64,000 nt of DNA from Naegleria gruberi (lineage: Eukaryota). Positions 4,024 to 63,435 of the stretch are shown here, piece after piece. The translations under genes were made by a program, and so were the position numbers. The DNA lies in assembly GCA_000004985.1 (NCBI GenBank), contig GG738896.1; one strand, 5' to 3'. How positions within the stretch are numbered: the first letter of the stretch is position 1; each line of letters starts with the position of its first letter. The notes under the pieces are model-generated. The model searched no databases, had not been told where the DNA came from, and worked only from the letters and a program-made list of their open reading frames with translations.

Positions 4024-6150
4024 ATGAAACTCACAATCCTCGTCGGATTGCTCTTGCTTTGCTTGTTGGTTTCAACACAAGCAGCCTACAACAATGAATT
4101 GGCAGACGACATTATCGACATTTTGTCTGACAGAAGAGGAGGAAGAAGATTTGCAGCACCAGCCTACACTCCACCTCCAAGACATTATGCTCCTCCACAA
4201 CCTGTCTTTAGAGCAGCACCAGTTTACACTCCTCCTCCACAACCTGTGTATCATAGACCTGCTGTTGTACATCATCCAAGACCTGTTTATAGAGCTCCTC
4301 CACAACCTGTGTATCAACCACAACCAGCAATTGCTCAACCACAACCAGTGAGAAGAGGAAAGAGAGGAAGATTTATTCCACCACAACCAGTTAGTCAACC
4401 AGCTGCTGTTCCACAACCAATAGTTGCCCAATTCCAACAACCAAGAGGAAGAAAGGGAGGTAGAGGTAAAAGAAATAATTTCCAAGCTCAAGCTCCACAA
4501 CCAACAGTTGGTCAACCAATAGCTCAATTCCAACAACCAGCTGGAAGAAGAGGTAAAAAGGGTAAGAAGGGTGGTTTCATTGGTGGTCAACCATCAATTG
4601 GTCAACCTACTCCATCAAGAGGTAAAGGAAAAGGAAAGGGAAAGAAGGGAAAGAAGGGAAATAAAGGAAATGTAGCTCCAGAAGATGGTTCCTCTCAAAC
4701 CAGTGGAAGAAAAGGTAAGAAAGGAAAAGGTGGTAAGAAGGGTGGATTATTCAGTAAAATCACTAAGGGACTCATGGGTGGCGGTGGTGCTGGTGGTAAG
4801 AAAGGAAAGGGTGGTAAGAAGAATAAGAAACAAGAACAACAAGAACAGCAAGAACAAGAACAACAAGAGCAAGAAGTTGCTGCTGCTGAACAACAAATTG
4901 TCGAACAACAAAAAGCTGCTGAACAAGATATCTCTGAACAACAAGCTCAAGTTGAGAAACAAGTTGGAGAACAAAAGCAAGAAATTGAATCACAAATTGC
5001 TCAACAACAACAACAAGCTGAACAACATATTGCCAAATTGAGAGAAGAATTGGAAGCTAGTATTCAATCTGCTAATCAACAAATTGAACAACAAGTATCT
5101 CAACAACATGAAGATTATAAGGTACAATTTAAGGCAGCTCAAGAACAACTTACACCACAAATTGAACAACTTACTGAACAACAAACTCAAATTGAAACTC
5201 AAATGACTGAATTGGCTAAAGTAGCTCAAGAACAAGAACAAGCAAAGGAAAGATTGATTGAAAAGGAAAAGAAATTGAATCAAGAATATCAACAATTAAT
5301 GGCAACTGAACAACAATTGGTTGCTCTTGCTATTGTCGAAAAAGCTCCATTGCAAACTACTCAACAACAAGCTCCTCAATTAGCTGAAACTCAACCTGCC
5401 ACAAATCAAGAAAATCAACAAGAACTTGCTGATTTGATCTATGATGTATTGTCAGATGTCTATTCCACAAAGAAAGGTAAAGGTGGCTTCCAACGTTTCA
5501 AAGCTGCCCCAACCAGACAATTTGCTGGACAACCATCAGCTCAACCTAGAGGTGGTAAGAAAGGAAAGGGTGGTAAAAAGGGTGGATTCCTTAGTAAAAT
5601 CACTAAGGGATTCAAGGGAATCATGGGAGGTGGTAAAAAGGGAGGAAAACAAGCTCCACCATCAACCTATTCCTCAAATGGTGAGATTGCTGCCCAACAA
5701 CAACAAGCTGAACAACAAATTGCCGAACAAAAGCAACAAGCAGAACAACAATTGACTCAACAACAACAAGAAATTGAACAAAAATTGACTCAACAACAGC
5801 AACAAGCTGAAGAATTGATTGCCAAGCAACAACAAGAAGCTGAAGATTTGATTGCCAAGCAACAAGCTCAATTACAAGATCAAATTCAAGCTGCTCAAAA
5901 GCAAATTGACGATCAAGCTGCTAAAATGACTGCTGATTTACAAGCTGAAACTCAAGCTACTCAAGAAAAGATTGCCAAGCAAAAGGAACAACTCGATCAA
6001 CAACAAGCTCAATTGCAACAAGTTGCTGACAAGCAAGCTACCACCCAACAAGAAATCGATGCTAAGGAAAAGGAACTTGCTGAACTCGAACAAAAATTGG
6101 CTACCTTGAGACAAGCTATTCAAAAGATTACCAATGCCAAGAAGCAATAA
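4024..6150 (+). CDS. Secreted repetitive protein: Pro-rich repeats, basic KKGKGGKKGG repeats and Gln/Glu-rich coiled coils
   Basis: Signal peptide MKLTILVGLLLLCLLVSTQA. PPQPVY-type proline repeats. A whole module (DxIxDxLSD, then K/G-rich, then FSKITKG, then Q/E coiled coil) occurs twice. Long uninterrupted ORF. Confidence 0.65.
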   Translation: MKLTILVGLLLLCLLVSTQAAYNNELADDIIDILSDRRGGRRFAAPAYTPPPRHYAPPQPVFRAAPVYTPPPQPVYHRPAVVHHPRPVYRAPPQPVYQPQPAIAQPQPVRRGKRGRFIPPQPVSQPAAVPQPIVAQFQQPRGRKGGRGKRNNFQAQAPQPTVGQPIAQFQQPAGRRGKKGKKGGFIGGQPSIGQPTPSRGKGKGKGKKGKKGNKGNVAPEDGSSQTSGRKGKKGKGGKKGGLFSKITKGLMGGGGAGGKKGKGGKKNKKQEQQEQQEQEQQEQEVAAAEQQIVEQQKAAEQDISEQQAQVEKQVGEQKQEIESQIAQQQQQAEQHIAKLREELEASIQSANQQIEQQVSQQHEDYKVQFKAAQEQLTPQIEQLTEQQTQIETQMTELAKVAQEQEQAKERLIEKEKKLNQEYQQLMATEQQLVALAIVEKAPLQTTQQQAPQLAETQPATNQENQQELADLIYDVLSDVYSTKKGKGGFQRFKAAPTRQFAGQPSAQPRGGKKGKGGKKGGFLSKITKGFKGIMGGGKKGGKQAPPSTYSSNGEIAAQQQQAEQQIAEQKQQAEQQLTQQQQEIEQKLTQQQQQAEELIAKQQQEAEDLIAKQQAQLQDQIQAAQKQIDDQAAKMTADLQAETQATQEKIAKQKEQLDQQQAQLQQVADKQATTQQEIDAKEKELAELEQKLATLRQAIQKITNAKKQ

Positions 6151-7737: not shown

Positions 7738-10700
7738 ATGTCACAACAGCAGTTCATTGAAATTTACATTTCCAACTACAAGACCATCACACCTGATGAT
7801 CGTCACACTAAACCCTACACCAATTACATTCTCGATATTTCTCTCCAATCCGATAAAAATCCTCAAGAAATTTTCTATCAATGGTCAATAGAATATCGAT
7901 ATTCACAATTGAGAAGTTTTCACTCTCTACTTTCCAAGTACTTTAAAAAGCTTCCGACATTTCCTCCAAAAGTAAGTTTAATTTTTTTAAATATTTTAAT
8001 TTTTTTTAAATATTTAATATTTTGTATATTTTGTAAATTAGAAATTATTTAATAGATCATCGGAAATGATTGAAAAAAGACTTGTGGAATTAAAAAAGTA
8101 TTTTAAACAATTATTTAAAAATAGAAATGATATATTTAACAAATCGGGAACTCTTTCGTTTATTTTGAAATTTATCAACATTCCAAATGAATTAATGCAA
8201 TATGTAATAGTTACAAAAGATGATTTAAATTCGGTGGATTCTCTCACTTTTTTAAATTCAAAACTTGACAAGTCAATTGAATCTCCTTTTTGTAAAGTAA
8301 TTTTCCATAAGGGAGTGAGATATAAATTATCGAAATTTATTGGAAATGGTACATATGGTAAAGTTTATCATTCTGTCGATGATTCAGGATATGAGTATGC
8401 AATTAAGGAAATTCCTGCATTGTATGTTGATACAATGTTTGTGGAAAACAATGTAAAACTCATCTCTGAATGTAATGAAACATTTCTGAGATATATATTG
8501 AGAATTTTAGATACATTTCAAATTGCTAATAACTATTATGTCGTTACAGAATATTTTAATAAGGGATCTCTTAATAATATACGAAATGATGTGAAAATGA
8601 GTGTTTCTACAATTTTACAAATAATTATACAAATGGTCACTTCATTAAGATTCTTAAATTCAAAGAAAATGGTACATTTGGATATTAAGGAGGGAAACAT
8701 TTTTGTTCAATTCTTTAATGGACATCGAATTTCACTAATTTTAGGAGATTTGGGATTGAGTAGAAAAATTAATCCTTCCATTCAATTGAATACTATTAAC
8801 AATAATATTAATAATATAGAAATAGTTAAAGAAAGCTTATTCGAATCATTATCCAGTTCTGCATCTGTTGGAACACCATTATATCAAGCTCCAGAAATGT
8901 TACAACAAGAAAATCCTTTCATTCATGAAAAGAGTGATATTTATTCTTTAGGTTGTACAATATTATATTATTTATTTGGTAAAATTAAAGTATTGAATCA
9001 AGAAAAAGAATTAGATTGGGAAAAGATCAATTCTCTCTTTCAAAAACTTGAAGAACCAGAATGGAAATATATTTATGAATTGTTACAAAAAATGTTAACA
9101 ATTGATGTTAACGAGAGAGCAGACACCAAAACAATACTTGATTTTATATTTAAAAAACAAGATGCATTGCCATCGGAAATGAATGAAGAAAAAAGAAATC
9201 AATTCATCCTGGACGAAATGGAAAGTATTGATTTACTAACAAGTTATGTAAAATTACAAGATTATTTCAAAACAAGTGATTCCATAATAAGAGATTCTCT
9301 TTATGAAAATGGAAATCAATTGGAAGATTTACCAGAACATTTTAAAAACAATTCCAACTATTTTAACATTGCAGCTCAACAAAATTCAATGTTGCATAAA
9401 GACTCAGATCAATTTAATTATTATCTAGAGCTAGCTGCTGATTCGAAACCAAATAACAATGAAATTACTCTCCTTACAAAAAATTCCTCTGAACAAAACA
9501 GAAATGATTACTACTTTGCTTTGAGTTCAGTTTCAAAGGACGGAAAAACTTTAAGATTTGTTGGACATCTTTTGAAAATGAATAGAACTATTGTAATGAC
9601 AGCTGTGAAACAAAATCCATTGGCAATTCAATATGCCCCCAGTTCATTAAGGAAAGATAAGGAAATAGCAAAGGAGGCCCTTGTTTACAATGGCAGAACT
9701 TTGGAATATTTAGAAGAGTTACAAGATGATGAGGAAATTGTACTCGCAGCTGTTTCTGTTCATGGAATTGCCATAAAATTTGCTTCTCCAAGATTGAGAT
9801 CTCACGAAAATATAATCAGACGAGCTGTCAAAGTTGATGAACGTGCCATTGAATATGCTGATACTTCAAATTTATCACTGAAATTATTATTTGAAATTAT
9901 TTGTCAAAATATTGATGCATGTTATTATTTGAAATATGACGAAAAGTTAGTGATGGACTATGTGAAACAAACCAATGATAGCAATGCGAAAACATTTCTA
10001 TTGTTAATGGAAAAAAAGGTATCCATGTCGAAAATGATTCAATTGGCCGACGATATTGGAAATCCACTTGCCCAACTTTATGTTGCCCTACATAGAAGGG
10101 ATAATCCTGAAAGAATGCTCAATGCTGCCAAGCAAGGTAATTTACAAGCTCAATTGATATTGGCACGTTGGTTACAGATGTATGGACATGTTGATTCGGC
10201 AGTGGATTGGTTGAAAAAATGTGCCTCCCATTCATATCTTCCTGCAATTGTTTTTCTCTGTTCATTACTTGATCCAGCTACGGATGGTGAATGGTTTTTG
10301 AAAGGGGCTCATTTAGGAGATGGTGAAATTCAATACGTTTATGGCTTATCAATTTTTTATGAAAAAAATCGTACTCAAATTAATTATCAGGGATTTTATT
10401 GGTGTAAACGAGCTGCTCATCAGGGGTTTCCTAGAGCTCAATATCACATGTCTCAATGTTACAAGTATGGATTAGCAGTTAATAGAAATCCTGAGAAGGC
10501 TTTCAAATGGATGAAACTAGCTGCAGAGAATCAAGTGATAGTAGCTCAATATCAACTTGGATTATTTTATGGAGGTGGAAAAGGAACTGTGCAAGATGTC
10601 AAAAAAGCATTTTACTGGTTAGAAACTTCTGCCAAAAAGAAAAATTGGGTTGCCTTAAATGAACTTGGACTAATTTATATGAAAGGTCGTTATGATGTTA

Positions 10701-17359: not shown

Positions 17360-17689
17360 TTGGAACCAGAGGAAGTTGAAATTGATATTGGTGATGATAT
17401 GGATGATGATCCAATCCAACCAGTTACTCATCAATCAAGTGGAGGATATGATCCAGAATTTGAAGAAATGAAGAAGAAATTCAAAAAACCAACTGGTGCC
17501 TCAGAAGGTTGTGTTAATTGCATTATGAAGGAATATATGAAGACTAAAGCTAACACTGAAAAGTTTGGTATTGGTGCTAATCCTGACAATGTAAGCTATG
17601 AGCTTTTACAATTCAACTCTTCCTGGGCCTTCAAAGAAGACAATTTCGAGAGTCATTTTGATTTAGAGTTATATGTTTTTGTTGGATAG
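17360..17689 (+). CDS. Possible small acidic protein / exon (uncertain)
   Basis: 109-codon ORF with acidic N-terminus DDMDDDPIQP. An internal GTAAGC at about 17591 could be a donor. No convincing ATG context. Confidence 0.25.
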   Translation: MEPEEVEIDIGDDMDDDPIQPVTHQSSGGYDPEFEEMKKKFKKPTGASEGCVNCIMKEYMKTKANTEKFGIGANPDNVSYELLQFNSSWAFKEDNFESHFDLELYVFVG

Positions 17690-18767: not shown

Positions 18768-20216
18768 TTAATGCGACTTGTTATGTTGAAATAAATCTTG
18801 TATGCAACGAAAAGGACTTTCCAAACTTAAACAAGCAATTATTATAATATCCTTATCATTTCTTATTAATGGATCTTCAACAAATTCAAGTAAACTTCCT
18901 CGTCTGTAAACAGCTTCCTTTACAACATCATAATCATTCCTAAGCACATAGGACGCAAATTTGATTGATTCTGGATTGCTTTTGACAGAAGCCAGCATGA
19001 TTTCCTTATTATTTCTTAATGAAATAGGGACATGCTCAATTGCATTTCCACTGGGGAATGTAACAGCATCTAAAACAATATCAAAATCATCCTGTAGTTC
19101 CTTAGGTACAAACTTTAAAGCATCACCATTCCATCTTACTGCAATTTTAGCAATTTCCTTTTTGTTTTTCAATCGGTCAGAGGCAAATTGTAAAGCTAGT
19201 CCATTTTTCTCCACTGCAATTCGAACTATTTCTTCATCATCCTTAAATTCCTCACTTGTATTTTTAAGGGAAAGTGGCGAATAACCAACACATTCCTTTA
19301 CAATAGCCCGTAAATATTCCTGTTTGAGTTTACAATTCTCTTCAAAATCCTGTGTTAAAAATATCCTTTCATTCCACATTTGAAATTCATGGGCTATTTC
19401 CAACATCTCCTTGTGTGTGAAGGGTTTCGTTTCATGCGACATTAACCTCTTTACAATGTTTTTCACATCACTATTGCTCTCCTCTTCTCTATAATCGTAG
19501 TAAAACTTGAAATCATGGTACGTTTCATAATTGTGAAATCTGAAAAAATCACCATAAATATTAATGGCAACAGAGTGTAATTCCTTTTTAAGTCTGAGAG
19601 AAGCAAAATCATAAGCAATTACTTCATCACAAGCAAAATCATCGATAGCATCGTTATTGAACAAATAAAAAGCATCTGAATACATGGCTGCTATCACAAC
19701 ATCCACATCATCTCGCAATTCTTTTGAAGCAAATTCAAGAGCTAGCCCACAAGTAGAGACAGCTGCCAAAGCTGCTTTCTTATTGTTTCCACATTCTTTT
19801 TGATACCAATCAAGAGAACAAGGATTAAGTGCACATGCCACTTGACTAAACTCCTCATAAATATATAAATTCAACGTCCCTCCAATGTCAATACTATCTT
19901 CACTGCTAAATTTAAATAATTCTTCCGTAATATATTGTCCATCTCTTTTCCAATTCAATTTTAATTGTTCAAAAGCAAATTCCCTTTCATCATTGTCTTG
20001 ATTACATTTTTCAAAGGCCTTTAGGATAGGGTGAATAATCAATTCGTATTTCACATTTTTTGGAACATCACGAATTTGTTGCATTAAAATTGGAGATTTA
20101 AAACTTTGATCGAGAAGTATTCGTACATGGGAAGAGTTGGAATTGATATTGTCGTAGGTTGCCTTCTTTTTGAGAGGAGGTGAGGAAACGGAATTCTCTA
20201 GGCAACTTCTTTTCAT
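18768..20216 (-). CDS. DUF4116-repeat protein
   Basis: Real ATG at 20216 (the ORF track begins 9 nt upstream at a GTG). At least four DUF4116-type repeats (ALEFASKELRDDVDVVIAAM; ALQFASDRLKNKKEIAKIAV; ALKFVPKELQDDFDIVLDAV; ...). Confidence 0.7.
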   Translation of the reverse strand: MKRSCLENSVSSPPLKKKATYDNINSNSSHVRILLDQSFKSPILMQQIRDVPKNVKYELIIHPILKAFEKCNQDNDEREFAFEQLKLNWKRDGQYITEELFKFSSEDSIDIGGTLNLYIYEEFSQVACALNPCSLDWYQKECGNNKKAALAAVSTCGLALEFASKELRDDVDVVIAAMYSDAFYLFNNDAIDDFACDEVIAYDFASLRLKKELHSVAINIYGDFFRFHNYETYHDFKFYYDYREEESNSDVKNIVKRLMSHETKPFTHKEMLEIAHEFQMWNERIFLTQDFEENCKLKQEYLRAIVKECVGYSPLSLKNTSEEFKDDEEIVRIAVEKNGLALQFASDRLKNKKEIAKIAVRWNGDALKFVPKELQDDFDIVLDAVTFPSGNAIEHVPISLRNNKEIMLASVKSNPESIKFASYVLRNDYDVVKEAVYRRGSLLEFVEDPLIRNDKDIIIIACLSLESPFRCIQDLFQHNKSH

Positions 20217-20552
20217 TTTTTCCACTTTCGAATTTTAATTTTCATGCTATGAAATAGATAGAATTTCGTCCATTGATCAATGGTATAGAGGCGATTGGAA
20301 TAGTTTGAGACATTTTGGAGTTGAAACAAGAGATGATGAAATATTCTTCCTTTACGACATTTTTGGAAAAAAATAGAGTCAAAGTTGAGGGATCCAAAAA
20401 AGGAAATACTAAATATTTTTAAAAAATAAAAACGGAATTATGGAGCATATCATCTACACGATCAACTGACTAAAAATCGACAAAAAATAACATATATTGA
20501 ACTAGAAAATATAAAATTATTAATCATTACCCCCCATTTAAATCATTAAAAA

Positions 20553-20670
20553 GACTACAGCACCACAGGTTCCCAAGTTGTCTCCAACCTCAGTACTGAT
20601 GTGGCTCGACGATGCTTAACTTCTCAAATCGGACGGGATGAGGTGCATGAATCGTGATATGGCCGTAGCC
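20553..20670 (-). rRNA. 5S ribosomal RNA, copy 3
   Basis: Reverse complement is identical to copy 1. Poly-T terminator on the minus strand at 20548-20552. Conserved element on its 5' side at 20671-20699. Confidence 0.9.
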
Positions 20671-20699
20671 ATTAAATATCATAAATTAAGATTTATCAA
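20671..20699 (-). promoter_or_regulatory. Conserved AT-rich element 5' of 5S copy 3 (same as 2048-2076)
   Basis: The reverse complement TTGATAAATCTTAATTTATGATATTTAAT matches the copy 1 flank at 28 of 29 positions. Confidence 0.4.
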
Positions 20700-20859
20700 A
20701 AGAATGTGCTCTGATTCGAATATGGAATAAACTCAGGTATGCAATTAGGATGAATACTACATTCACCAATTCTAAATATACAGATTCAAATTGATGAGTT
20801 TGTGGATTATGTTATACTAGTAATATTCTAATTTTGGAAAGTTTAATTTTAAAAAAAAA

Positions 20860-22481
20860 ATGTCTCAATTAGAAATTGCTGCGCAAGCAGTTGATTGTTA
20901 TGTTGACGAAATTAAAGGATGGTGCAAGTGCAAGGTTTATATTTATGAGCCATCAAATGAGAAAGTTTGGAAAGATGCAGAATTGAGTGGTTTGTGCACG
21001 TAAGTTTTATTGGAAATGTTTCGAAATGAGAATTTATTGGTTGGTAGAATTCATTTACAGTTACTGTCGAATACGATTTCGTTGAATGTTACAAATTTAA
21101 TAACGAAACAAGTTTCATTCAAAGNNNNNNNNNNNNNNNNNNNNNNNNNNNNNNNNNNNNNNNNNNNNNNNNNNNNNNNNNNNNNNNNNNNNNNNNNNNN
21201 NNNNNNNNNNNNNNNNNNNNNNNNNNNNNNNNNNNNNNNNNNNNNNNNNNNNNNNNNNNNNNNNNNNNNNNNNNNNNNNNNNNNNNNNNNNNNNNNNNNN
21301 NNNNNNNNNNNNNNNNNNNNNNNNNNNNNNNNNNNNNNNNNNNNNNNNNNNNNNNNNNNNNNNNNNNNNNNNNNNNNNNNNNNNNNNNNNNNNNNNNNNN
21401 NNNNNNNNNNNNNNNNNNNNNNNNNNNNNNNNNNNNNNNNNNNNNNNNNNNNNNNNNNNNNNNNNNNNNNNNNNNNNNNNNNNNNNNNNNNNNNNNNNNN
21501 NNNNNNNNNNNNNNNNNNNNNNNNNNNNNNNNNNNNNNNNNNNNNNNNNNNNNNNNNNNNNNNNNNNNNNNNNNNNNNNNNNNNNNNNNNNNNNNNNNNN
21601 NNNNNNNNNNNNNNNNNNNNNNNNNNNNNNNNNNNNNNNNNNNNNNNNNNNNNNNNNNNNNNNNNNNNNNNNNNNNNNNNNNNNNNNNNNNNNNNNNNNN
21701 NNNNNNNNNNNNNNNNNNNNNNNNNNNNNNNNNNNNNNNNNNNNNNNNNNNNNNNNNNNNNNNNNNNNNNNNNNNNNNNNNNNNNNNNNNNNNNNNNNNN
21801 NNNNNNNNNNNNNNNNNNNNNNNNNNNNNNNNNNNNNNNNNNNNNNNNNNNNNNNNNNNNNNNNNNNNNNNNNNNNNNNNNNNNNNNNNNNNNNNNNNNN
21901 NNNNNNNNNNNTGCAAAGAGAATGGTAGGAGAAGATTACTTCCTTGCCATATTGCATCTCAGTCTGGAAATGTGGAGATTTTGGAATTTTTGATTGACCA
22001 CGCTTGTAAATATTATCTGAATAATAGTACAAAACTTCAACAGTTGAGTGAATTTAACAATGCATCTATTTTCAATAATTCATTGAATGAGTTCATAAAA
22101 CAATTTCTTTCAATCAAAACCCAAGATGTAAATAGTCAAACTCCACTTCACTTGGCAGTTCGGGAAGGTCACACTTCTTGTGTAAAACTATTACTTGAAA
22201 AGGGTGCTGATCCACTTTCAGTTGATCATATTGGTAAAACAGTAGTTGATTATTCAAGAATGAACTTTATTAATAAGCATGTTATCATTGAAGAATTGCA
22301 AAAGTATGTGGATTTTGCAATCTTACCTCCACTAGAACCAATACCTATCATTCCAAACATTGCTGAGTCAGAATCTATTGAAGAAGAAATAATTGTAAAT
22401 CAAGAACCAGAGCTACAATCTGAATCAAGCAATTCTAATCAAGAACAAGATGAAGAAAATGAGAACATTTATTTTATGTGA
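20860..22481 (+). CDS. Ankyrin-repeat protein with acidic C-terminus, interrupted by an assembly gap
   Basis: Exon 1 runs 20860-20999 (MSQLEIAAQAVDCYVDEIKGWCK...) and ends at a GTAAGT donor at 21000. The coding frame resumes open at 21912, directly after the gap, with ankyrin repeats (RRLLPCHIASQSGNVEILEFLIDHA; TPLHLAVREGHTSCVKLLLEKGADP) and continues to 22481. Exon structure inside the gap is unknown. Confidence 0.55.
21125..21911. other. Assembly gap (787 N)
   Basis: Run of N. Confidence 1.
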
Positions 22482-49960: not shown

Positions 49961-51062
49961 ATGAACTATCCTAAAGCTTTAGTTGTATTTCTGATATCTT
50001 TCGCTATCCTCAACGTTGGTATCTTTGCCATCACTGTTTCTCAAGATTTTACCAATGCATTTGATGCAGCTGTCCAAGCAATGATTACTGACAGCGAATG
50101 GAATAAATTCTATTCTGACACGATGTATTTTACAGTGCCAACATGTACAAGTGCAACTGTCAAATGGCCAACTAAGAATCCATTCATTGGTAGAAGTGGT
50201 TTAAACATGTGTTTCGAAACTGGAACTTTATCTCCGTGGTTAGAAACCAAGACGAAAATTGCTCAAATGGTTGTTCAAAAGATTAATTCACACTATGGAA
50301 CAAGTTATAATGCAAATATTTTGAGATTTAATACAAGTGCATTGGGATTCTTTGATACGATGAAAAATGCTGTGAATAATGGAGATTGTAAGTTTCGAAT
50401 ATATTTTTTAAGTTTCGAATATTTTGAAATAATTAATGTTTGATAATTTCGAATAGGTGATATGATAACTGCTAATATTCTTGTTACTGCCGAAAGAAGT
50501 TCATCCATTCATTATCAATGTCCATTCGGATCTGGTTCAAATGGTTGGATCAGAACTAAAAGAGATCCACAACTTTCCATTACTGATATTTCTCAATTGA
50601 ACAAGACTGGAATCATGGTTGGAGGTAAGTTATTGATCATTCATGAAATTTCTCATTCATTATTCAACAAATCTATTCGAAACACAGCTTATGAAGGAAC
50701 TGCTTTTGCAACTTATGTGAAAACTAATCTTCCAGCTGCAACTTTTGTGCCATATTCTGGTATTAACTTGCAATATGACGCTGTTTTGGATGGATCAGTT
50801 CATGCAATTATTGGAGATGGTAAGTTTAATTTAGTTTATTATTGGTATTCGAAACCTTTCAGCTATTCAATATTACAATTGGGCCAATGTTCAAATGTCA
50901 GGAAAATGTAATTGCACTGTTAAAACTTATGGAAATACATTCGGTATGGCCACTTTCACCAATGTGAATATTACAACAAGCGGAGTTGACCAAATCGGCG
51001 GAGGAAATGTTTGGACCTCCTTTTTGGTATTAATAATAGTTTCCATTTTAGTCATGTTTTAA
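49961..51062 (+). CDS. Secreted, probably GPI-anchored, solute-binding-protein family 3 (SBP_bac_3 / iGluR ligand-binding-like) protein; 4 exons
   Basis: Signal peptide MNYPKALVVFLISFAILNVGIFA. Exons 49961-50387, 50457-50624, 50688-50819 and 50863-51062 (alternative in-frame acceptor at 50899). All introns are GTAAGT...AG, phase 1. Matches the SBP_bac_3 pattern: GDMITANILVTAERSSSIHYQCPF...LNKTGIMVG...YEGTAFATYVKTNLPAATFVPYSG...DAVLDGSVHAIIGD. Hydrophobic C-terminus (VWTSFLVLIIVSILVMF). Confidence 0.65.
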
Positions 51063-51185: not shown

Positions 51186-52760
51186 ATGTGGAATGCGAAT
51201 TCTCCTGCGCCATGCTCATCAGGATCATCGGTTGATCAGCAGCAATACAGTCCACTTCCCATCGCCTCTATTCAACAATTTACATCAACAGTAACTCATC
51301 ACGAATTTGTAATGCACTCATCAGAATTATTTGTCGAATTATTTTGAATTCCTGATCGTAAAAAGAAGAATAATTCTGATTATTTGGATGCATATTTCAA
51401 GTCTACAAAGTCTTTTGATGCAAACAAGTATCAATCACAGATTAATCCACAAATTGTACGTCAAGTCCAAATATCAAGTAATGGTATCTCAGATCATTGT
51501 ACAAATGTGCGTTCGTGGTTTATTGAAACCATCATGATGAGAATGGGTATTTTCCTACCTGAGAACATTTCGTTGGTGAAGAGAATTGGAGAGGGAGCTT
51601 ATGGCAGCGTGTATAGAATTGGTAAAGATAAAGTGTTGAAGATTGCTAAAGATGGTGAAGCCATCAAGAAGTTTGATCATCCATTATTGTTGAGTATTGA
51701 GAGGCTTTTTTGGTATGAAGCTGAGAAACTCTTGTTGATTGTTTCTCCATACTATGAATTGGGACATTTGAGAGGTCAATTCACATTAGGTCAATATTGG
51801 TCAATTCTTTGTAATTTGACAAATGCTCTCAAGTATTTACATTCCCAACAAGTTGTTCATAGAGATATCAAGCCAGCAAACATACTTGTAGAAAAAAAGG
51901 ACAAATTTGAAGTGAAAGTTGTTTTAGCTGATTTTGGATTGGCGAAATCGTTCGATTCTTGCAGTGCAGGAAGTGTAGGAACGACCTACTTTGTAGCTCC
52001 AGAATTAATGAAAGGTTATGATGGAGAACATAGTGCTAGAAGAAGAGTTGCCAATGAGAAGAGTGACATTTTTTCTCTTGGAAAGACTATTAGCGTTCTA
52101 ATTTTGAATGACAAACCTGAAGATTTGGAATTTAAGAAGGGGAATTCACTCACCGAATTGCTTAATCGTATGATGAAGTACAAGCCAGAGAATAGACCTT
52201 CGACTGATGAAATTATTTCAATATGTGAAATGGAGATTTCAAAGCTTTCAGAGACTGATTACAATGCAATTTTCAAATTATCCGACAATGATATTGAAAT
52301 ATTTGATGAAATGAGCTTTTACACTGAAAGTAGTTTGAGTGATGGTTTGTTGAAAATGTTAATAAGCGGAGAAAGTTCTCAAAGTCAATCTGCTGTTAAA
52401 CATTCATACACGTTTGATCTTCACGATGACGGTGTTGTAAATGCCAAGAAAATAATTCACATCAAGTGCACACCAGAGGCAAGATTGGCCATCGAATCAA
52501 TCTATCTCAGAATTTACAACACCAAATTCAATACAGGACTCATTGATGTAACCAATTGCTTGTCCAAATCAGTTAGAGAAATATCCAATGATAATGAAAA
52601 GAAATATGCCATCTCTGGTTCACAAAAACAATATCTCATTCCTGCCAAGTCGAAATATCAAAATGAAAAAGGAAAGGACACTATTGAATTGTATATTAAT
52701 AATAGGGATGAACATGTGGCTTCAGCCAATTATGTCGCCAAGAATAATAAAAATAATTAA
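51186..52760 (+). CDS. Ser/Thr protein kinase (exons 51186-51308 [tentative] and 51402-52760)
   Basis: Kinase motifs IGEGAYGSVY, VLKIAK, HRDIKPANILV, DFGLAK, APELMKG. The ORF-track start at 51384 is a TTG and the first in-frame ATG is at 51534. A 41-codon GC-richer ATG exon (MWNANSPAPCSSGSSVDQQQYSP...THHEF) with a GTAATG donor at 51309 and an acceptor AG at 51400-01 joins in phase 0. Plausible but unproven. Confidence 0.7.
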
Positions 52761-55183: not shown

Positions 55184-56827
55184 GTGTAAATTATCATCTA
55201 CAGATTGATTCAATAATTTTTGTTTGAAATTGTCTGCTGAGCCACGGAATTCTGCTATCAGAAGCATATTTACATCACATCCAGATTGCACATCCAAAAT
55301 ATCGTATTTTTCTTTGAATAATAACTCGGCCAATTTTCTATCCAACATCTTATTGGTTGCAGAAAGAGAAGATGGTGAAATAACAGAGACGTATGGAGAT
55401 TGAAATGGCAGAATTTCCTTTGAAACACCCGAATATTTACCACCTTGTGTGAATAGAGTCTTCTTATTGATTGTACCAAAAGAGCAATAGTATCCGCCAA
55501 AGAGTTTAATGTCCATCGAGCCCAAATCGCAATAGCTACTGAATAAATCCTGTTGTTTTTTTTCATTACTTGTAATGACTGGTTTTTCAAGAGGAGATGA
55601 GCTATTGATCCAGTGAGAGCTGTTTGACATGTGACCACCAGCAAATGCTCTTACGTTTCTTTCAATCAAATCAAATTCATTTCGTTCCTTTCCAATGAAA
55701 TGGAGAGAATTGTCTTCCAATTGAGCATAGACTCCATTATCAGTTTGTCCAATTTTTACAATAGGATATTTCAATGCATCTAGATTTGGAACTCGGTGTG
55801 TAGTTCCAGCAGTTACTTTCCATGCAGTTTCACCACAACTATAAATCAAAAATCTGTTAAAGACCAATGCACTTGAAAATGTACCACAAGTCAAGTCTGT
55901 CACTCTATAGGTTTCGTATGGATTTTCATCATGATTACCCGATTTAAAAATGTCAAAAGAATCATTCAAAACTTGATATTGAGGATTGAAATCTGCTCCA
56001 AACAATTGTTTGAAATAAGAGTGACCAGCTCCCAAAATAATATTCCTATTCACAACAATAATGGTATGGAACCAACCACAGGCAACAAAATCAACAGTTT
56101 GAATATTACTAAAATGTTGTCTGATAAAACTTTCTTGCTTTTCACTCCAATTACGAGTTCTAATGATAGAAGGCAATGCATTAGACATGGCAGATGTTAA
56201 ATAATCATTCAATGGTGAAAATAGCTCTACATATTCAGAGGGTTCAGTTTGTAACTGATTATAATTATTCTTTCCACAGCCAAATACTTTAGCATCACTC
56301 GCTATATTTGATTAACACAACAACAGTCAATAATATTAGCTACTTACTAGCAATCAATGAGTGAGATCTTCCGCAAGCAATAATATTCACTCGACTAAGA
56401 ATTTCTTCACTTTCATTATCAGAAAGTCCTTTAATTTGTGTAACTTCCTTCCATTCTTCCATTGAACTAACATCATTCCTATCAAAACCTAATTGTGCAC
56501 TATCATTAGATCCTATTTAAATATATTTGTAACGTTAAACTTCATCATGCAAACGTTTCGAAACTTACCTGAAGTAAATATCTTGGCTCTCTTGATAGAA
56601 TTGCCTGACGAGGCTGATGGTAATTGTCTCTTGGTTGCTGGATTTCTTTCCTTTTGCTTCTTTCTATTATTATTTGATAAAGTTGAATTATTCAGTGATG
56701 GTGAGGATATTATCGATGTTTCTGATGATGAAGGAGAAGACTGATCACTAACCACCTGATTCAAATCTTCATTCTGGTCCGATCGGTTGTTATTACTACC
56801 AAATAGCGATCCAAAAAATTGCTTCAT
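55154..56827 (-). CDS. RCC1-repeat (regulator of chromosome condensation-like) protein; 3 exons: 56569-56827, 56348-56512, 55154-56301
   Basis: Exon 1 (MKQFFGSLFGS..., Ser-rich) ends at G|GTAAGT. A 56-nt intron precedes exon 2 (GSNDSAQLGFD...RVNIIACGRSHSLIA), which ends at A|GTAAGT. A 46-nt intron precedes exon 3 (TSDAKVFGCGKNNYNQLQTE...VACGWFHTIIV...). RCC1 signatures CG..HS/HT and G.N..GQLG. Phases 1, 1 are consistent. Confidence 0.65.
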
Positions 56828-58765: not shown

Positions 58766-59674
58766 ATGAATAAGGCAAAGAACAAAGCCAAGAAAACTCA
58801 AGCAAGCACTTCCTTTGCCAAAGATGTTTCCCAAGAAGGCTCTTCCTCGCCAGCTAAAAAAGTATCACAAGTAAGCGCTTCCTATCCATCAAAACAGGTT
58901 TCCCAAGAAGGGTCTTCCCCTCAAAACAAAGAGGTATCACCTACTTTCAAATGTGAATGCAACACTTCTATATACAATCAAATACGCAACGCAGATACAA
59001 CCACAGGTATCCAATTACTTGTAAACACTTTAGTTCAGTTCATAGATGATATTAACCAAGATATTGCATGTATTAAACAAGATATTGCATGTATTAAGCA
59101 AGATATTGCAAGTATTAAGAAGGATTTGAACAATCCTAACACAAATGTTGGATGTTTGTATGAGTTACAAGTTAAGAATGAATTTGAAAAGGAATACAGT
59201 CATGTCGAGTGGCCAATGATATTGCAAAGAAAACAATTTCCTAAGCAATTTTTCGAAGTAGATGCGAACAGCAGTCACTATACTAACCTGTGCAATGAAT
59301 TAGTGGAGTCCAAAGTGATGTCATTGGAGAATGCTACAGTATTGGACTTATTTATTGGCAGTGTGGAAATTAACGTTGTTAGGAAAGAAACACAATCCAA
59401 AAATGATACTCATATCATTGAAGTAACAATGTCCTCCTTTACCAATGACTGCCAGTTGATTTGTAAACTTTTACAATTGGAACGACAAGCTCTTTATTAC
59501 AGAGCTTGCTATCCAAATGACAAAATTACAACAATTGGATTGGTTTCTCCTTCCAGTTTGACTATAGACAGAATTAAGGGGGTAGTAGAGAAATATTCAA
59601 ACTTTGTTATTGTTAGATCATTTCTTGAGAGTGGAAATTTCAAGGTTCAGAGACATAGCAATAAGCCAATTTAA
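58766..59674 (+). CDS. Hypothetical protein with Ser/Gln-rich N-terminal repeats and a QDIACIK tandem repeat
   Basis: 302-codon ORF from an ATG in A-rich context. Three copies of a 24-bp unit (59057-59128). No known domain. Confidence 0.5.
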   Translation: MNKAKNKAKKTQASTSFAKDVSQEGSSSPAKKVSQVSASYPSKQVSQEGSSPQNKEVSPTFKCECNTSIYNQIRNADTTTGIQLLVNTLVQFIDDINQDIACIKQDIACIKQDIASIKKDLNNPNTNVGCLYELQVKNEFEKEYSHVEWPMILQRKQFPKQFFEVDANSSHYTNLCNELVESKVMSLENATVLDLFIGSVEINVVRKETQSKNDTHIIEVTMSSFTNDCQLICKLLQLERQALYYRACYPNDKITTIGLVSPSSLTIDRIKGVVEKYSNFVIVRSFLESGNFKVQRHSNKPI

Positions 59675-59848
59675 TAACCATGATAAACATTCCCATAGCT
59701 CATAAAACTCTGTAATTTCTCAATTCAGTTGCAGCATGTTTCCATCACGTTATTAATTATACCATTCCTCAACTTGATTTGCAAATGAAAATAACGATCT
59801 GTGGCAAAGCGCAATGGGTCCCAGATTTAGATAAAAAATCGAAAAAAA

Positions 59849-62800
59849 ATGATGAAAGGATATCTAACCACCCTTGTTATCTTTCTCTATTGTTGCTACT
59901 GTTTTCTCTCTTCAATAGCGTTGGTACAGGTGGGAAATTGTGCATCAATTTCACAGCAAACATTTTCATCTCTACTCAACTCGACTGAAACTCCGATTCT
60001 CTCCTTGACAATGTATCTCGGCGGAGCTAAATCTCCAACCAGTGATTCTACCAGTTGGGGTAATTTATGTGGAGTTGCAATGGAAAACCCTTGCAAAAGT
60101 TTTGGTCAATTGATGATCAGTTTTAATTCGACTTTGTTTAATTTGCATGAAAATTTCACAAATTTACAAGTTGAAAGAAATGTTTATTTGAAGATTTATT
60201 TGTTATCTAGTGATGGATCGGTTGTGTGCTCGAATAATCAGGTGGATTTGGGGATGGTTTCATCGATGAAATATTTTGTGGAAATTACAAAAATAGACGA
60301 AACTAAACCCTTGTTGATTTGTTCGAATACAGTTAATACTTACCTGAGTATTCCAATTCCACCTCAGATCAACGTCATTTACTTTCATTCTTTGAAATTT
60401 CAATCACTCTTGATCAAATATGACAATTCCAAATCAAGACCACTTGACATTTTGATTGAGGATTGTGAAATGGTGAATGTTTCAATTGAAGAATATAGAA
60501 AATCAATTCGAGATGATTGGGCAAAATATTTTATCATGGAGAATTCAAAATTTATTTCCAATATCTTTCCTCTCAAAATTCTCTATACGAATCAAGTCAT
60601 TATCGTAAAATCTCAATTTAATTACATGCTTGGAGTTCAATTTGGACACTCAGTAACTATACAAGAATCGGTAATTCTTGGACACCCTTCAATTATCTCG
60701 AATTTACAGACCTTTCGGATAACTAATTCATCCCTAGAGTCAGTTGGCATTCAAAGTGTGGAAAATGTGGATTTCATTGGTGTGTTTTTCTTTGAATCCA
60801 AATTGTATCAGACATCAATTTCAATTTCTCAGATAACTGGTTTCTCTGGCAACAAGTGGACTTTCACGGATTGCATTTCAAAACGAGTGGAAAATTTTGC
60901 ATCTATTCGCTCAGTGGAAAGTGTTCTAATTGAGAATATTTTATTGGAAAGTTCAGGTTCGATTAGTAATGGAATGGTGCCTTTTATTTATTTAGATAGT
61001 TGCAATACAGTGACCATGCTTAGGAATATCATTAAGAAAGGGGTTTCCTTCATTCAGATTAATTATTATTATACTGTGCAAATAGTTTCGTCTCAATTTT
61101 ATAATAATGCTCCGTTGCTTATTGATAGATCTTCACCAATTGAAACATCCCAAAGTAGAATTTCAATCATTAATTCAAAATTTTCTGGATCTGTTTCTAG
61201 ATATGGACCAGTCCAAATTAATTATTGCACTAATTTAAATATTTATGGTTGTGTATTTAATGATAATATAGCAACAGTGTCTGGAGGTGCTTTGTTCATT
61301 GGAAATTTAGTACATTCTTCACAAATAGCTGAAAGTTATTTTATTAATAATCAAGTGGCATGTGAAGGAATTCCAAATATGGAAAAATGTTCTGGTGGAG
61401 CAATTTCATATACCAATAGTGAAAACTCGAATGGAATTTTAATTGAAAAATGTAATTTTAGAAATAATGTTGCATCTAGAGGTGGAATTTTATATTTTGG
61501 AAAGAATAATGCCTATATTAGGGTTACTAATTCGACTATGGAAAACAATCAAGCCAAGTTGACTGGAAGCATTGCTTATTTTAATTACAAGGAAGAAAGG
61601 TATTTCCAAATGATTGATGTTAATAGGAAGAATAATTTTTCACCAACAAGCATTGATTTGGCTGAGAAGATTTCGTATAATTCAGCTTCAATTATGGGAA
61701 TTTCCAATGAGAATGATGTATATGAATTGTCCATTGGGAAAAAGTATTCACTTAACCTTACTGGTACGGATGGATATGGAAATCAAACTAATCAAGTTAT
61801 TGATCAATTATCAATAGAATCATCTGATTCTCGTTTGACAATGACATTAGATCAGCAACTAGATTCGATTACTTTCCAACTATTCTTCCTTGATTCGGCT
61901 CAGAATTTCTCATTGCTGGGTTTCAAAAATACTTTTAAAATTACAACACCTAACAACCCTGTCAATCTTTCCATTATAATCAAATCATGTGATACAGGTT
62001 TTGAAATAACAAGTACAGTTACCGAAAAAACTGGAATTTACTTGTACGATTGTCGACCTATTCCTGTATTCCCTATTGGAATATTATTGGGTTTAGTAAT
62101 TGGATGTTCATTATTTGTTTTTATTTTAGGAGTTTCTATTGGATTGGCAAGTTATTGTTTGTGGAATGTTGTTAAAAAGTTGAGAAAACTCAGACAAAAG
62201 GAAATTGCAGAGAAACAAATGGAAGACGCTTTATTGAATAAGAGAATAATATTCAACATGACAGAGGATGAGGAGGAATACTATGAGAAACGACCAGAAG
62301 CCGAATCTGGTAGTAAGAATTCAAAAGCTTCCTATCAGAAACTTCCTGATTCTGAACTAAGTTCTTCCTTAATGAATCAAAACAAGACTAAACATAGATA
62401 CAGCATGTCCTCTTCATTCATCATCCCAATAGAAGATATCACAATTATCAAAAAGATTGGTGAAGGAGGTGCTGCAAATGTTTATTACGGAACTTGGACG
62501 AATATTAAGGTTGCAATTAAATCTCTCAAATCTGAAATTAACGAAGATTTCGAACAAAATTTCGAAAGAGAAGCTTCCATTTTGAGTAATATTAGACATC
62601 CAAATGTTTTAACGTTTTATGGTGTTTGCTTAACAGATAAAAGTCGATACATTGTAACTGAATATATGGAGAAGGGAACATTGGAAAAATTTATATACGA
62701 AAGTAGAAATAGAGGAATGAATATTGAGCTTCTCAAGACTATTCTGACATTATTGTGTGGAATTTCTAATGGAATGCAATATCTTCATGCACTTAAACCT

Positions 62801-63435
62801 GCTGTCATTCACAGAGATTTGAAATCGAGTAATATTTTACTTGATGAGAGGAATAATCCAAAAGTTTCGGATTTTGGATTGGTGAAAGTTTTAGGAACGA
62901 ACACAATGCAAACTCAAATGACGAAAGCCATTGGAACCATCTTTTTCATGGTAAGTATTGTAAAATTTAATTCGAATCTCACTAATTTTCTCAAAGGCAC
63001 CAGTAAGTATTTCTATATTTCGATTGACTTGAATCAAAATTTATTGAAATTTGACAGGAATCTTTCATGACTGATCATCCAATTGATAATAAGGAAGCAG
63101 CAACCAAACTAGATGTCTACAGCTTTTCAATCTTAATGTGGGAATTATTCTTTAGGAAAAGTCCCTACCATCACGTCAAGAATACTTTCAAAATTCCACA
63201 ACTAGTTTGCGATGGTGAAAGACCTCAAATACCCTTCTCTGTTGGAAATCAAGAAGAAATTAGGGAATGGTTATTGGAAAGTAATGGAGAATCTAATTCT
63301 GATGTGGTGATACAGTGTATTGATCGATATTTTTCACTTGTTGTAAAGTGTTGGAATCACAATCCATTGGAAAGACCTTTATTTTCGAATATTAGACAAG
63401 AATTGGAAGAAATATTGTCAAGCATTAACCATTAA
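59849..63435 (+). CDS. Receptor-like protein kinase with beta-helix-repeat ectodomain; exons 59849-62950, 62997-63002 (6-nt microexon) and 63058-63435
   Basis: Signal peptide. Ectodomain has parallel-beta-helix / PMP-like repeats (SGGALFIGN..., SGGAISYTN..., RGGILYFGKN...). TM IGILLGLVIGCSLFVFILGVSIGLASYCLW. Kinase motifs (IGEGGAANVYYG, VAIK, HRDLKSSNILL, DFGLVK). Exon 1 ends ...GTIFFM at GTAAGT 62951. The microexon ag|GCACCA|GTAAGT (AP) recreates MAPE. Exon 3 is ESFMTDHP...DVYSFSILMWEL.... Confidence 0.75.

What the first reader, a model, noticed from the sequence alone, without database searches (positions are those of the whole stretch)
62951..63057. 6-nt microexon (GCACCA = Ala-Pro) restores the kinase APE motif in the receptor-like kinase
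Between the exon ending ...AIGTIFFM (GTAAGT donor at 62951) and the exon beginning ESFMTDHP (acceptor AG at 63056-57) lies a 107-nt gap. Exactly in its middle is ag|GCACCA|GTAAGT (62995-63008), with a perfect acceptor and a consensus donor. Including these 6 nt keeps phase 0 and inserts A-P, so the activation segment reads GTIFFMAPESFM. Without it the invariant APE motif is absent. The two flanking introns (46 and 55 nt) match the intron size seen throughout the window. Microexons this small are rarely annotated by automatic pipelines.
Basis: seen in the sequence. Interest (0 to 1): 0.6.

Follow-up and report, generated by a model that had tools for sequence, protein, structure and literature searches.

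The report
Unannotated 6-base exon completes kinase motif
A six-base exon coding Ala-Pro sits between two very short introns in a Naegleria gruberi receptor kinase gene; the public gene model skips it and so lacks the conserved APE motif, which makes this a well-supported annotation fix, not a new kind of biology.

Summary
The window is Naegleria gruberi NEG-M. The gene (59849-63435, +) has GTAAGT at 62951, ag|GCACCA|GTAAGT at 62995-63008 and an acceptor AG at 63056-57.

The GenBank model (EFC39873.1 / XP_002672617.1, NAEGRDRAFT_52133) joins 62950 to 63058 and reads ...GTIFFMESFM..., without Ala-Pro.

Evidence for the 6-nt exon:
- Three relatives (N. fowleri, N. lovaniensis, one metagenome contig) have a phase-0 intron exactly between the two residues before Glu and the Glu. 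The donor at 63003 is therefore the old, conserved one.
- 127 of 128 homologues have exactly nine residues from G to E. None has a two-residue gap.
- Adding AP raises both Pfam kinase scores by 11-12 bits.
- A strain about 98% identical keeps both splice sites. Its only change in the exon is CCA to CCT, which is synonymous. All 14 coding differences are synonymous.
- The motif is not expected by chance (0 of 100 shuffles).
- Introns of 46 and 55 nt match the 40-70 nt introns elsewhere in the window.

The upstream 46-nt intron is absent from every relative examined and looks like a lineage-specific gain. No transcript evidence could be obtained. I rate the microexon about 85% likely. It is a new member of a known kind, of modest interest.

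The parts
59849..62950 (+). Exon 1 of the receptor kinase gene. It starts at ATG 59849 and encodes a signal peptide (MMKGYLTTLVIFLYCCYCFLSSIALVQ), a large ectodomain with GGA(L/I)-type repeats, a transmembrane segment (PIGILLGLVIGCSLFVFILGVSIGLASYCLW), the juxtamembrane region, and the kinase domain up to ...AIGTIFFM.
   Evidence: Open frame and translation. The N-terminus matches that of paralogue P0001. Pfam kinase hits.
62951..62996 (+). Intron 1, 46 nt, phase 0: GTAAGTAT...CACTAAT...CTCAAAG. It is absent from all relatives examined, so it is probably a lineage-specific gain.
   Evidence: Sequence. Its size is within the 40-70 nt range of other window introns. It is kept in strain L003 with 2 substitutions. 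It is absent in L001, L084, L085, L087 and L002, and in the unspliced ORFs P0004, P0132 and P0134.
62982..62986 (+). Candidate branch site CTAAT of intron 1. The branch A is 11 nt upstream of the acceptor (inference).
   Evidence: Read directly from the sequence. It resembles the YTRAY-type elements seen near the 3' ends of other window introns. Not tested.
62997..63002 (+). 6-nt microexon GCACCA = Ala-Pro, which supplies the AP of the kinase APE motif.
   Evidence: Strain L003 has GCACCT, which is synonymous.
63003..63057 (+). Intron 2, 55 nt, phase 0: GTAAGTAT...TTGACAG. It lies at the conserved XX|E intron position of the Naegleria kinase family.
   Evidence: The same position and phase are used in N. 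fowleri L084 (124 nt), N. lovaniensis L087 (68 nt) and metagenome L001. L003 carries a 6-nt insertion here.
63058..63435 (+). Last coding exon, ESFMTDHP...SSINH, with stop TAA at 63433-63435. It contains the kinase C-lobe, including DVYSF and the subdomain XI Arg (LERP).
   Evidence: It is identical to the C-terminus of P0130.

Best explanation
The 107-nt stretch annotated as one intron in N. gruberi NAEGRDRAFT_52133 is two short spliceosomal introns (62951-62996 and 63003-63057) separated by a 6-nt coding microexon, GCACCA. Splicing both introns gives ...GTIFFM-AP-ESFM..., which restores the P+1 loop and APE motif of an otherwise complete TKL-type kinase domain in a single-pass receptor-like protein. 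The downstream intron is old: it is shared at the same codon boundary by paralogues in N. fowleri and N. lovaniensis and by a metagenomic relative. The upstream 46-nt intron was probably inserted later, 6 nt upstream of it, in the N. gruberi lineage, and that created the microexon. Six nucleotides cannot hold two spliceosomes at once, so the two introns are presumably removed one after the other, each by intron definition. That step is inferred from general knowledge and from the plant model in PMC8831610. Shown here: the sequence anatomy, the conservation of the intron position, the conserved length and residues in homologues, purifying selection, and the annotation gap. Inferred: actual inclusion in mRNA, the order of splicing, and the intron gain.
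For: Anatomy and frame. Organism and public model lacking AP. Conserved phase-0 intron between the residue pair and Glu: L001 GCACCA|gtaagt...cacag|GAA; N. fowleri L084 GCGAGA|gtaagt...aacag|GAA; N. lovaniensis L087 TCGAAT|gtaagt...aatag|GAA. Length and residue conservation: 127 of 128 homologues have nine residues from G to E, with Ala in 105 and Pro in 124 of 129 sequences at the two columns. Pro and Glu are nearly invariant and invariant in A3. PDB kinases align gap-free across MAPES. Pfam scores: PF07714 194.9 against 183.6 bits and PF00069 169.2 against 157.3 bits with and without AP. Strain comparison: 14 synonymous and 0 non-synonymous differences over 1047 coding nt, including CCA to CCT in the microexon, with both splice sites intact. 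Chance. Intron sizes of 40-70 nt in the window. AlphaFold2 of the annotated (no-AP) domain gives pLDDT 44-57 over residues 161-190. Paralogue P0001, which has LAPE, gives 93 for the block that holds the motif, using nearly the same alignment rows.
Against: No cDNA, EST or RNA-seq evidence could be reached. Exact look-ups of the spliced proteins found nothing. The acceptor of intron 1 is AAG, a weak type. The upstream intron has no counterpart in any relative, so comparative data support only one of the two introns directly. The single synonymous change in the exon is weak evidence on its own (about a 1 in 3 chance if neutral). The gene structure of the closest paralogue, P0001, could not be read.
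Confidence: 0.85

Rival explanations
1. The public model is right. A single 107-nt intron is removed, the protein lacks AP, and the GCACCA between splice-like signals is a relic or coincidence. The receptor would then be a kinase with a shortened P+1 loop, probably inactive.
For: The donor at 62951 and the acceptor at 63057 are used in both models, and the frame is kept without the hexamer. N. gruberi has longer introns too, with an annotated mean of 203 bp (PMC8296547). Some family members deviate from APE (ARE, SNE, GNE).
Against: It would move a conserved intron boundary by two codons and delete two residues that 127 of 128 homologues keep. The chance of ag-GCNCCN-GTAAGT arising there is negligible. 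All other catalytic motifs are intact, and the domain evolves with 14 synonymous and 0 non-synonymous changes, which argues for an active kinase. Pfam scores drop by 11-12 bits.
Confidence: 0.05
2. The microexon is a cassette exon. Both isoforms are made, and skipping yields a kinase-impaired receptor isoform that acts as a regulatory switch.
For: The weak AAG acceptor of intron 1. Both isoforms stay in frame. Exon skipping has been detected in N. gruberi transcriptomes in general (PMC6142364).
Against: There are no isoform data. In that same study intron retention exceeded exon skipping in all but one of the species surveyed. Nothing in the sequence points to regulation.
Confidence: 0.08
3. 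The 46-nt segment is an unspliced insertion and the gene is a decaying pseudogene.
For: The insertion is not a multiple of three and has no counterpart in relatives.
Against: It starts with GTAAGT, ends with AG, carries a CTAAT branch-like site at the right distance and has a typical intron size. The 1034-codon and 125-codon frames are intact. A diverged strain shows 14 synonymous and 0 non-synonymous differences and keeps the same structure.
Confidence: 0.02

Closest known systems
Ultra-short (1-15 nt) coding microexons missed by annotation pipelines, as catalogued in plants (PMC8831610), for example the 9-nt exons in AP2 and invertase genes
   Same: An internal coding exon of a few nucleotides, in frame, that encodes conserved residues inside a protein domain, is flanked by strong splice signals and is absent from the reference annotation. 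That paper also reports Pkinase and PK_Tyr_Ser-Thr among the top microexon-bearing domains in Chlamydomonas.
   Different: This one is in a heterolobosean amoeba with 46- and 55-nt introns. It has no transcript support yet. It is not an ancient conserved microexon: only its downstream intron is conserved, and the upstream one appears to be recent.
Naegleria TKL-type receptor kinases with an ectodomain, TM segment and kinase domain (paralogue XP/EFC 'predicted protein' P0001; N. fowleri FDP41_009158 = P0131; N. lovaniensis C9374_002741 = P0015)
   Same: The same juxtamembrane and kinase architecture, 43-69% identity, and a shared phase-0 intron just before the Glu of APE.
   Different: In the relatives whose DNA could be read, the two residues before Glu are contiguous with the upstream exon. 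Only the window gene and its strain variant L003 have the extra intron that isolates them.
Animal neuronal cassette microexons of 3-27 nt (named from general knowledge, not tested here)
   Same: Very short in-frame exons that insert one to a few residues into structured protein regions.
   Different: Those are alternatively spliced and depend on dedicated regulators and long introns. Here inclusion is expected to be constitutive, and no regulation is known.
Recursive splice sites or ratchet points, AG|GTAAGT (named from general knowledge)
   Same: An acceptor and a donor lie close together inside what looks like a single intron, which implies stepwise removal.
   Different: A ratchet point leaves no exon behind. 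Here six coding nucleotides remain between the acceptor and the donor.

Membership tests
Spliceosomal coding microexon (15 nt or less) | Bounded by an AG acceptor and a GT donor of the organism's usual type | tested here: met
   aaAG|GCACCA|GTAAGTAT. GTAAGT is the donor of all the window introns compared. An AAG acceptor is seen once elsewhere.
Spliceosomal coding microexon (15 nt or less) | Keeps the reading frame and encodes residues present in homologues | tested here: met
   Phase 0 on both sides. The Ala and Pro columns are occupied in 127 of 128 homologues. Pfam scores rise by 11-12 bits.
Spliceosomal coding microexon (15 nt or less) | Each flanking intron is viable on its own (length, branch site) | tested here: met
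   46 and 55 nt against 40-70 nt for other window introns. CTAAT lies 11 nt from the acceptor of intron 1. The branch site of intron 2 is only a candidate.
Spliceosomal coding microexon (15 nt or less) | Present in mature mRNA | not testable with these tools
   No transcript data could be reached. Exact protein look-ups were negative. RNA-seq exists under PRJEB23822.
Active eukaryotic protein kinase (TKL-like) | Catalytic and structural motifs: Gly-rich loop, VAIK Lys, alpha-C Glu, HRDLKxxN, DFG, APE, subdomain XI Arg | tested here: met
   IGEGGAANVY, VAIK, FEREA, HRDLKSSN, DFG and LERP are all in the translation. APE is present only with the microexon. PF07714 scores 194.9 bits and PF00069 169.2 bits. 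Invariant columns E54, D136, D154, E183 and R288. Enzymatic activity was not tested.
Receptor-like (single-pass transmembrane) kinase | N-terminal signal peptide, extracellular domain, one TM helix, cytoplasmic kinase | tested here: inconclusive
   Hydrophobic N-terminus and a 30-residue hydrophobic segment before KKLRKLRQ, read directly from the sequence. No topology predictor was run. The ectodomain has no Pfam hit at E<=0.01. Upstream gene calls in N. fowleri and N. lovaniensis carry faint Chlam_PMP and weak Beta_helix hits.
Alternatively spliced cassette microexon | Both inclusion and skipping isoforms observed | not testable with these tools
   No isoform data.
Recursive splice site (zero-length exon) | Acceptor AG directly abuts the donor GT | tested here: not met
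   Six coding nucleotides separate AG (62996) from GT (63003).

The most novel reading that the evidence does not exclude
The microexon was born recently, when a new 46-nt intron was inserted 6 nt upstream of an ancient intron in the N. gruberi lineage. Its weak AAG acceptor lets the cell skip it, which toggles the receptor between an active kinase and a kinase-dead decoy. This would be a protist example of microexon-based control of a catalytic motif.
Probability: 0.08. Interest if true: 0.6.

Novelty: new member of a known kind. Interest (0 to 1): 0.35.

Why it matters
The finding corrects a public protein record. XP_002672617.1 / D2VTJ8 lacks two residues of the kinase P+1/APE segment, and its 5' end also looks chimeric. 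Tiny exons are evidently missed in Naegleria annotations as they are in plants, so kinase and pseudokinase counts for this model amoeba may be slightly off. It is also a clean case of how a microexon can arise, by intron gain next to a conserved intron. The case can be checked with existing RNA-seq. It does not change any general concept.

Tried and rejected
A single-protein query would have been the better choice.

2. DNA for the N. gruberi paralogues P0001 and P0002 is not on record. Whether the closest paralogue shares intron 1 is therefore unknown.

3. Exact look-ups for spliced or unspliced products (1161, 1160, 1159 and 1073 aa, and the 242-aa ORF of L003) found nothing. Only the 122-aa C-terminal ORF led to the annotated protein and to strain contig L003.

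4. The homology search did not list the window's own protein cluster (P0129/P0130), although it is identical to the query. Absence of near-identical hits in that tool is therefore not informative.

I used paralogue P0001 as the control instead.

6. Origin of intron 1 by duplication of intron 2: rejected. The alignment score equals the shuffled expectation, p about 0.6.

7. Intron 1 as a copy of a repeated element in the window: no support. The best other match is 18 nt with one mismatch at 8725-8742, E about 0.01, and pairwise intron similarity has z below 3.

8. The second AGGCACCAGT, at 17492-17501 on the minus strand, is not followed by GTAAGT and has no intron-like context. I treat it as chance.

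9. Other splice combinations inside 62951-63057 give a stop or a frameshift. No other route restores APE (by inspection).

10. Literature searches for Naegleria microexons and for an APE-motif microexon found nothing relevant.

Full report
**Source of the window.** Five intronless ORFs in the window are exact matches to Naegleria gruberi NEG-M proteins (EFC39938, 39940, 39941, 39868, 39944), all on one 331,721-bp scaffold. GC content is about 32%. The window is therefore nuclear DNA of N. gruberi.

**The observation.**
- The long frame that starts at ATG 59849 ends with ...GCC ATT GGA ACC ATC TTT TTC ATG at 62950.
- GTAAGT follows at 62951.
- ...CTCAAAG ends at 62996.
- GCACCA occupies 62997-63002.
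- A second GTAAGT starts at 63003.
- ...TTTGACAG ends at 63057.
- GAA TCT TTC ATG ACT... (ESFMTDHP) starts at 63058 and runs to TAA at 63433-63435.

The two candidate introns are 46 and 55 nt, both in phase 0. The 14-mer AGGCNCCNGTAAGT occurs once in the window and in none of 100 shuffles. Even the minimal AGGCNCCNGT is expected only 0.17 times in 128 kb. Its presence exactly where Ala-Pro is missing is therefore not chance.

**The gene.** The product has these parts:
- a hydrophobic N-terminal signal-like peptide;
- an ectodomain of about 740 residues with GGA(L/I)-type repeats;
- one hydrophobic transmembrane segment;
- a basic juxtamembrane stretch;
- a TKL-like kinase domain.

The kinase domain carries the Gly-rich loop, VAIK, HRDLKSSN, DFG, DVYSF and the subdomain XI Arg. 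Pfam confirms the kinase, with PF07714 and PF00069. The ectodomain has no significant Pfam hit.

**The public annotation.** The C-terminal ORF led to GenBank EFC39873.1 / XP_002672617.1 / UniProt D2VTJ8 (NAEGRDRAFT_52133, 1258 aa). That model reads ...AIGTIFFMESFMTDHP.... It removes 62951-63057 as one 107-nt intron and omits Ala-Pro.

**Comparative evidence for the donor at 63003.** Family members were found by protein search and their DNA was fetched where available.
- In metagenome contig L001 the gene reads GTLFYI-GCACCA|gtaagtagc...ttcacag|GAA ATT.
- In N. fowleri (P0131, L084) it reads GTVFYM-GCGAGA|gtaagtgtg...(124 nt)...ttaacag|GAA ATG.
- In N. lovaniensis (P0015, L087) it reads GTLFYM-TCGAAT|gtaagtacg...(68 nt)...aaaatag|GAA ATG.

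All three have a phase-0 intron exactly between the residue pair that corresponds to AP and the Glu. This is the position of the window's second intron. The public model would need this conserved boundary to have moved by two codons along with the loss of two residues. The microexon model leaves it where it is.

Other relatives have no intron at this position: N. lovaniensis P0133 (L085), P0004, P0132, P0134 and L002. None of the relatives has an intron between the hydrophobic residue and AP. Intron 1 is therefore most simply a gain in the N. gruberi lineage, and that gain created the 6-nt exon. The locus of the closest paralogue, P0001 (about 69% identical, with LAPE in its annotated protein), could not be read. 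The age of the gain is therefore open.

**Protein-level evidence.**
- In a MAFFT alignment of the query with 128 homologues, 127 have exactly nine residues from the G of GT to the E of APE. The exception lacks the whole segment.
- The two columns filled by the microexon hold Ala in 105 and Pro in 124 of 129 sequences.
- Within Naegleria the motif can be ARE, SNE or GNE. The constant feature is the spacing, not the exact letters.
- Adding AP raises PF07714 from 183.6 to 194.9 bits and PF00069 from 157.3 to 169.2 bits.
- Solved kinases align without a gap across ...FFMAPESF....
- AlphaFold2 of the annotated, AP-less domain gives pLDDT 44-57 for residues 161-190, the activation segment and P+1 region.
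- Paralogue P0001, folded with nearly the same alignment rows, gives 93 for the block that contains LAPE.

**Population-level evidence.** An ENA metagenome contig (L003, ERZ929261) carries the same locus from a strain about 98% identical.
- Across 1047 coding nucleotides, including the microexon, there are 14 differences and all are synonymous. pS is 0.066 and pN is 0. The kinase domain is under strong purifying selection and is not a pseudogene.
- The microexon differs by CCA to CCT, still Pro.
- Both splice sites of both introns are unchanged.
- Intron 1 has two substitutions.
- Intron 2 has a 6-nt insertion just after GTAAG.

**Intron context.** A scan for GTAAGT-initiated introns that join long open frames found nine further credible introns of 40-70 nt in the window. 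The 46- and 55-nt introns fit that class. At 107 nt, the single intron would be longer than any of these nine; a less certain 95-nt candidate was also found. The annotated genome-wide mean is 203 bp, so 107 nt is not impossible.

Intron 1 carries CACTAAT 11 nt upstream of its acceptor, a plausible branch site. Its acceptor is AAG, the weakest class, which is seen in one other window intron.

**Mechanism.** The most likely reading is constitutive removal of two short introns by intron definition, leaving a 6-nt exon. The exon is too short for simultaneous assembly on both sides, so removal is expected to be sequential, as proposed for plant microexons (PMC8831610). The restored AP completes the P+1 loop and APE segment. 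From established kinase structure, the Glu of this segment pairs with the subdomain XI Arg, and both residues are invariant in the alignment (E183 and R288). Inclusion in mRNA, the order of splicing and kinase activity are all inferred.

**Rival explanations.**
- The public single-intron model cannot be excluded without RNA data. It conflicts with the conserved intron position, the universal spacing, the chance calculation and the purifying selection. I give it about 5%.
- Regulated skipping is possible, given the weak acceptor and two in-frame isoforms, but it has no support. I give it about 8%.
- A pseudogene with an unspliced insertion is contradicted by the 14:0 synonymous pattern and the intact frames. 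I give it about 2%.

**Comparison with known cases.** This works like the ultra-short coding microexons that are widely misannotated in plants (PMC8831610). The features that could be tested here are met: splice signals, frame, conserved residues and viable flanking introns. The transcript criterion could not be tested. It is not a recursive splice site, because six nucleotides remain between acceptor and donor. I found no report of microexons in Naegleria.

**Verdict.** This is a new member of a known kind, useful as an annotation correction and as an example of microexon birth by intron gain. Interest is modest.

Noticed in passing
window introns at 21000-21047, 50388-50456, 50625-50687, 50820-50862, 56513-56568 (-) and 62951-62996; whole window: The palindrome TTCGAA, often as TTCGAAT or TTCGAAA, recurs inside short introns. 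There are 8 copies in 580 nt of candidate introns, about 23 times the window average (Poisson p about 4e-9), in 6 of 11 introns. The whole window has 38 copies against 20.4 +/- 4.0 expected. Its position within introns varies, so it is not a branch site. In strain L003 the copy in intron 1 is mutated to TTCTAA. It is absent from the three N. fowleri, N. lovaniensis and metagenome introns examined. It may be an N. gruberi intronic motif. No literature was found.
   Followed up: partly
window 58766-60230 (+): The public model EFC39873.1 (P0130) starts at ATG 58766 in a separate upstream ORF (302 aa, stop at 59672-59674). It then jumps by a predicted intron of about 640 nt into the kinase gene at ...INVIYFHSLKF. 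That skips the kinase gene's own ATG (59849), its signal peptide and about 127 codons, all of which match the N-terminus of paralogue P0001. The model looks like a chimera of two genes.
   Followed up: partly
L086 about 2340-2481 (N. lovaniensis PYSW02000015.1, P0137): This paralogue has only about 70 nt, starting with GTAAGT, between ...SLKPNPV and EMIEGD...VDVYSF. The whole HRD-DFG-activation segment is missing from the genome, and no AG precedes GAA ATG. It looks like a naturally kinase-dead or decaying family member.
   Followed up: no
L002 630-668 (ENA ERZ4903137, P0003): This relative, 63% identical to the window kinase, reads ...LFYMSPE and is followed at once by an in-frame TGA. A one-base shift would give SPEMILHKA. 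This is probably an assembly error or a frameshift near the contig end.
   Followed up: no
window 51384-52760 (+): A second, unrelated protein kinase ORF (HRDIKPANIL, DFGLAK) has a contiguous, uninterrupted GTTYFVAPE. The microexon arrangement is therefore specific to the receptor kinase.
   Followed up: partly
window 4024-6150 (+) and 20001-22000: The 4-6 kb block has unusual composition (GC 0.40, AT skew 0.34), with a Lys/Gly-rich repetitive ORF (GGTAAGAAGGG repeats). The 20-22 kb block has very low GC (0.196), with long overlapping ORFs on both strands, probably low-complexity sequence.
   Followed up: no
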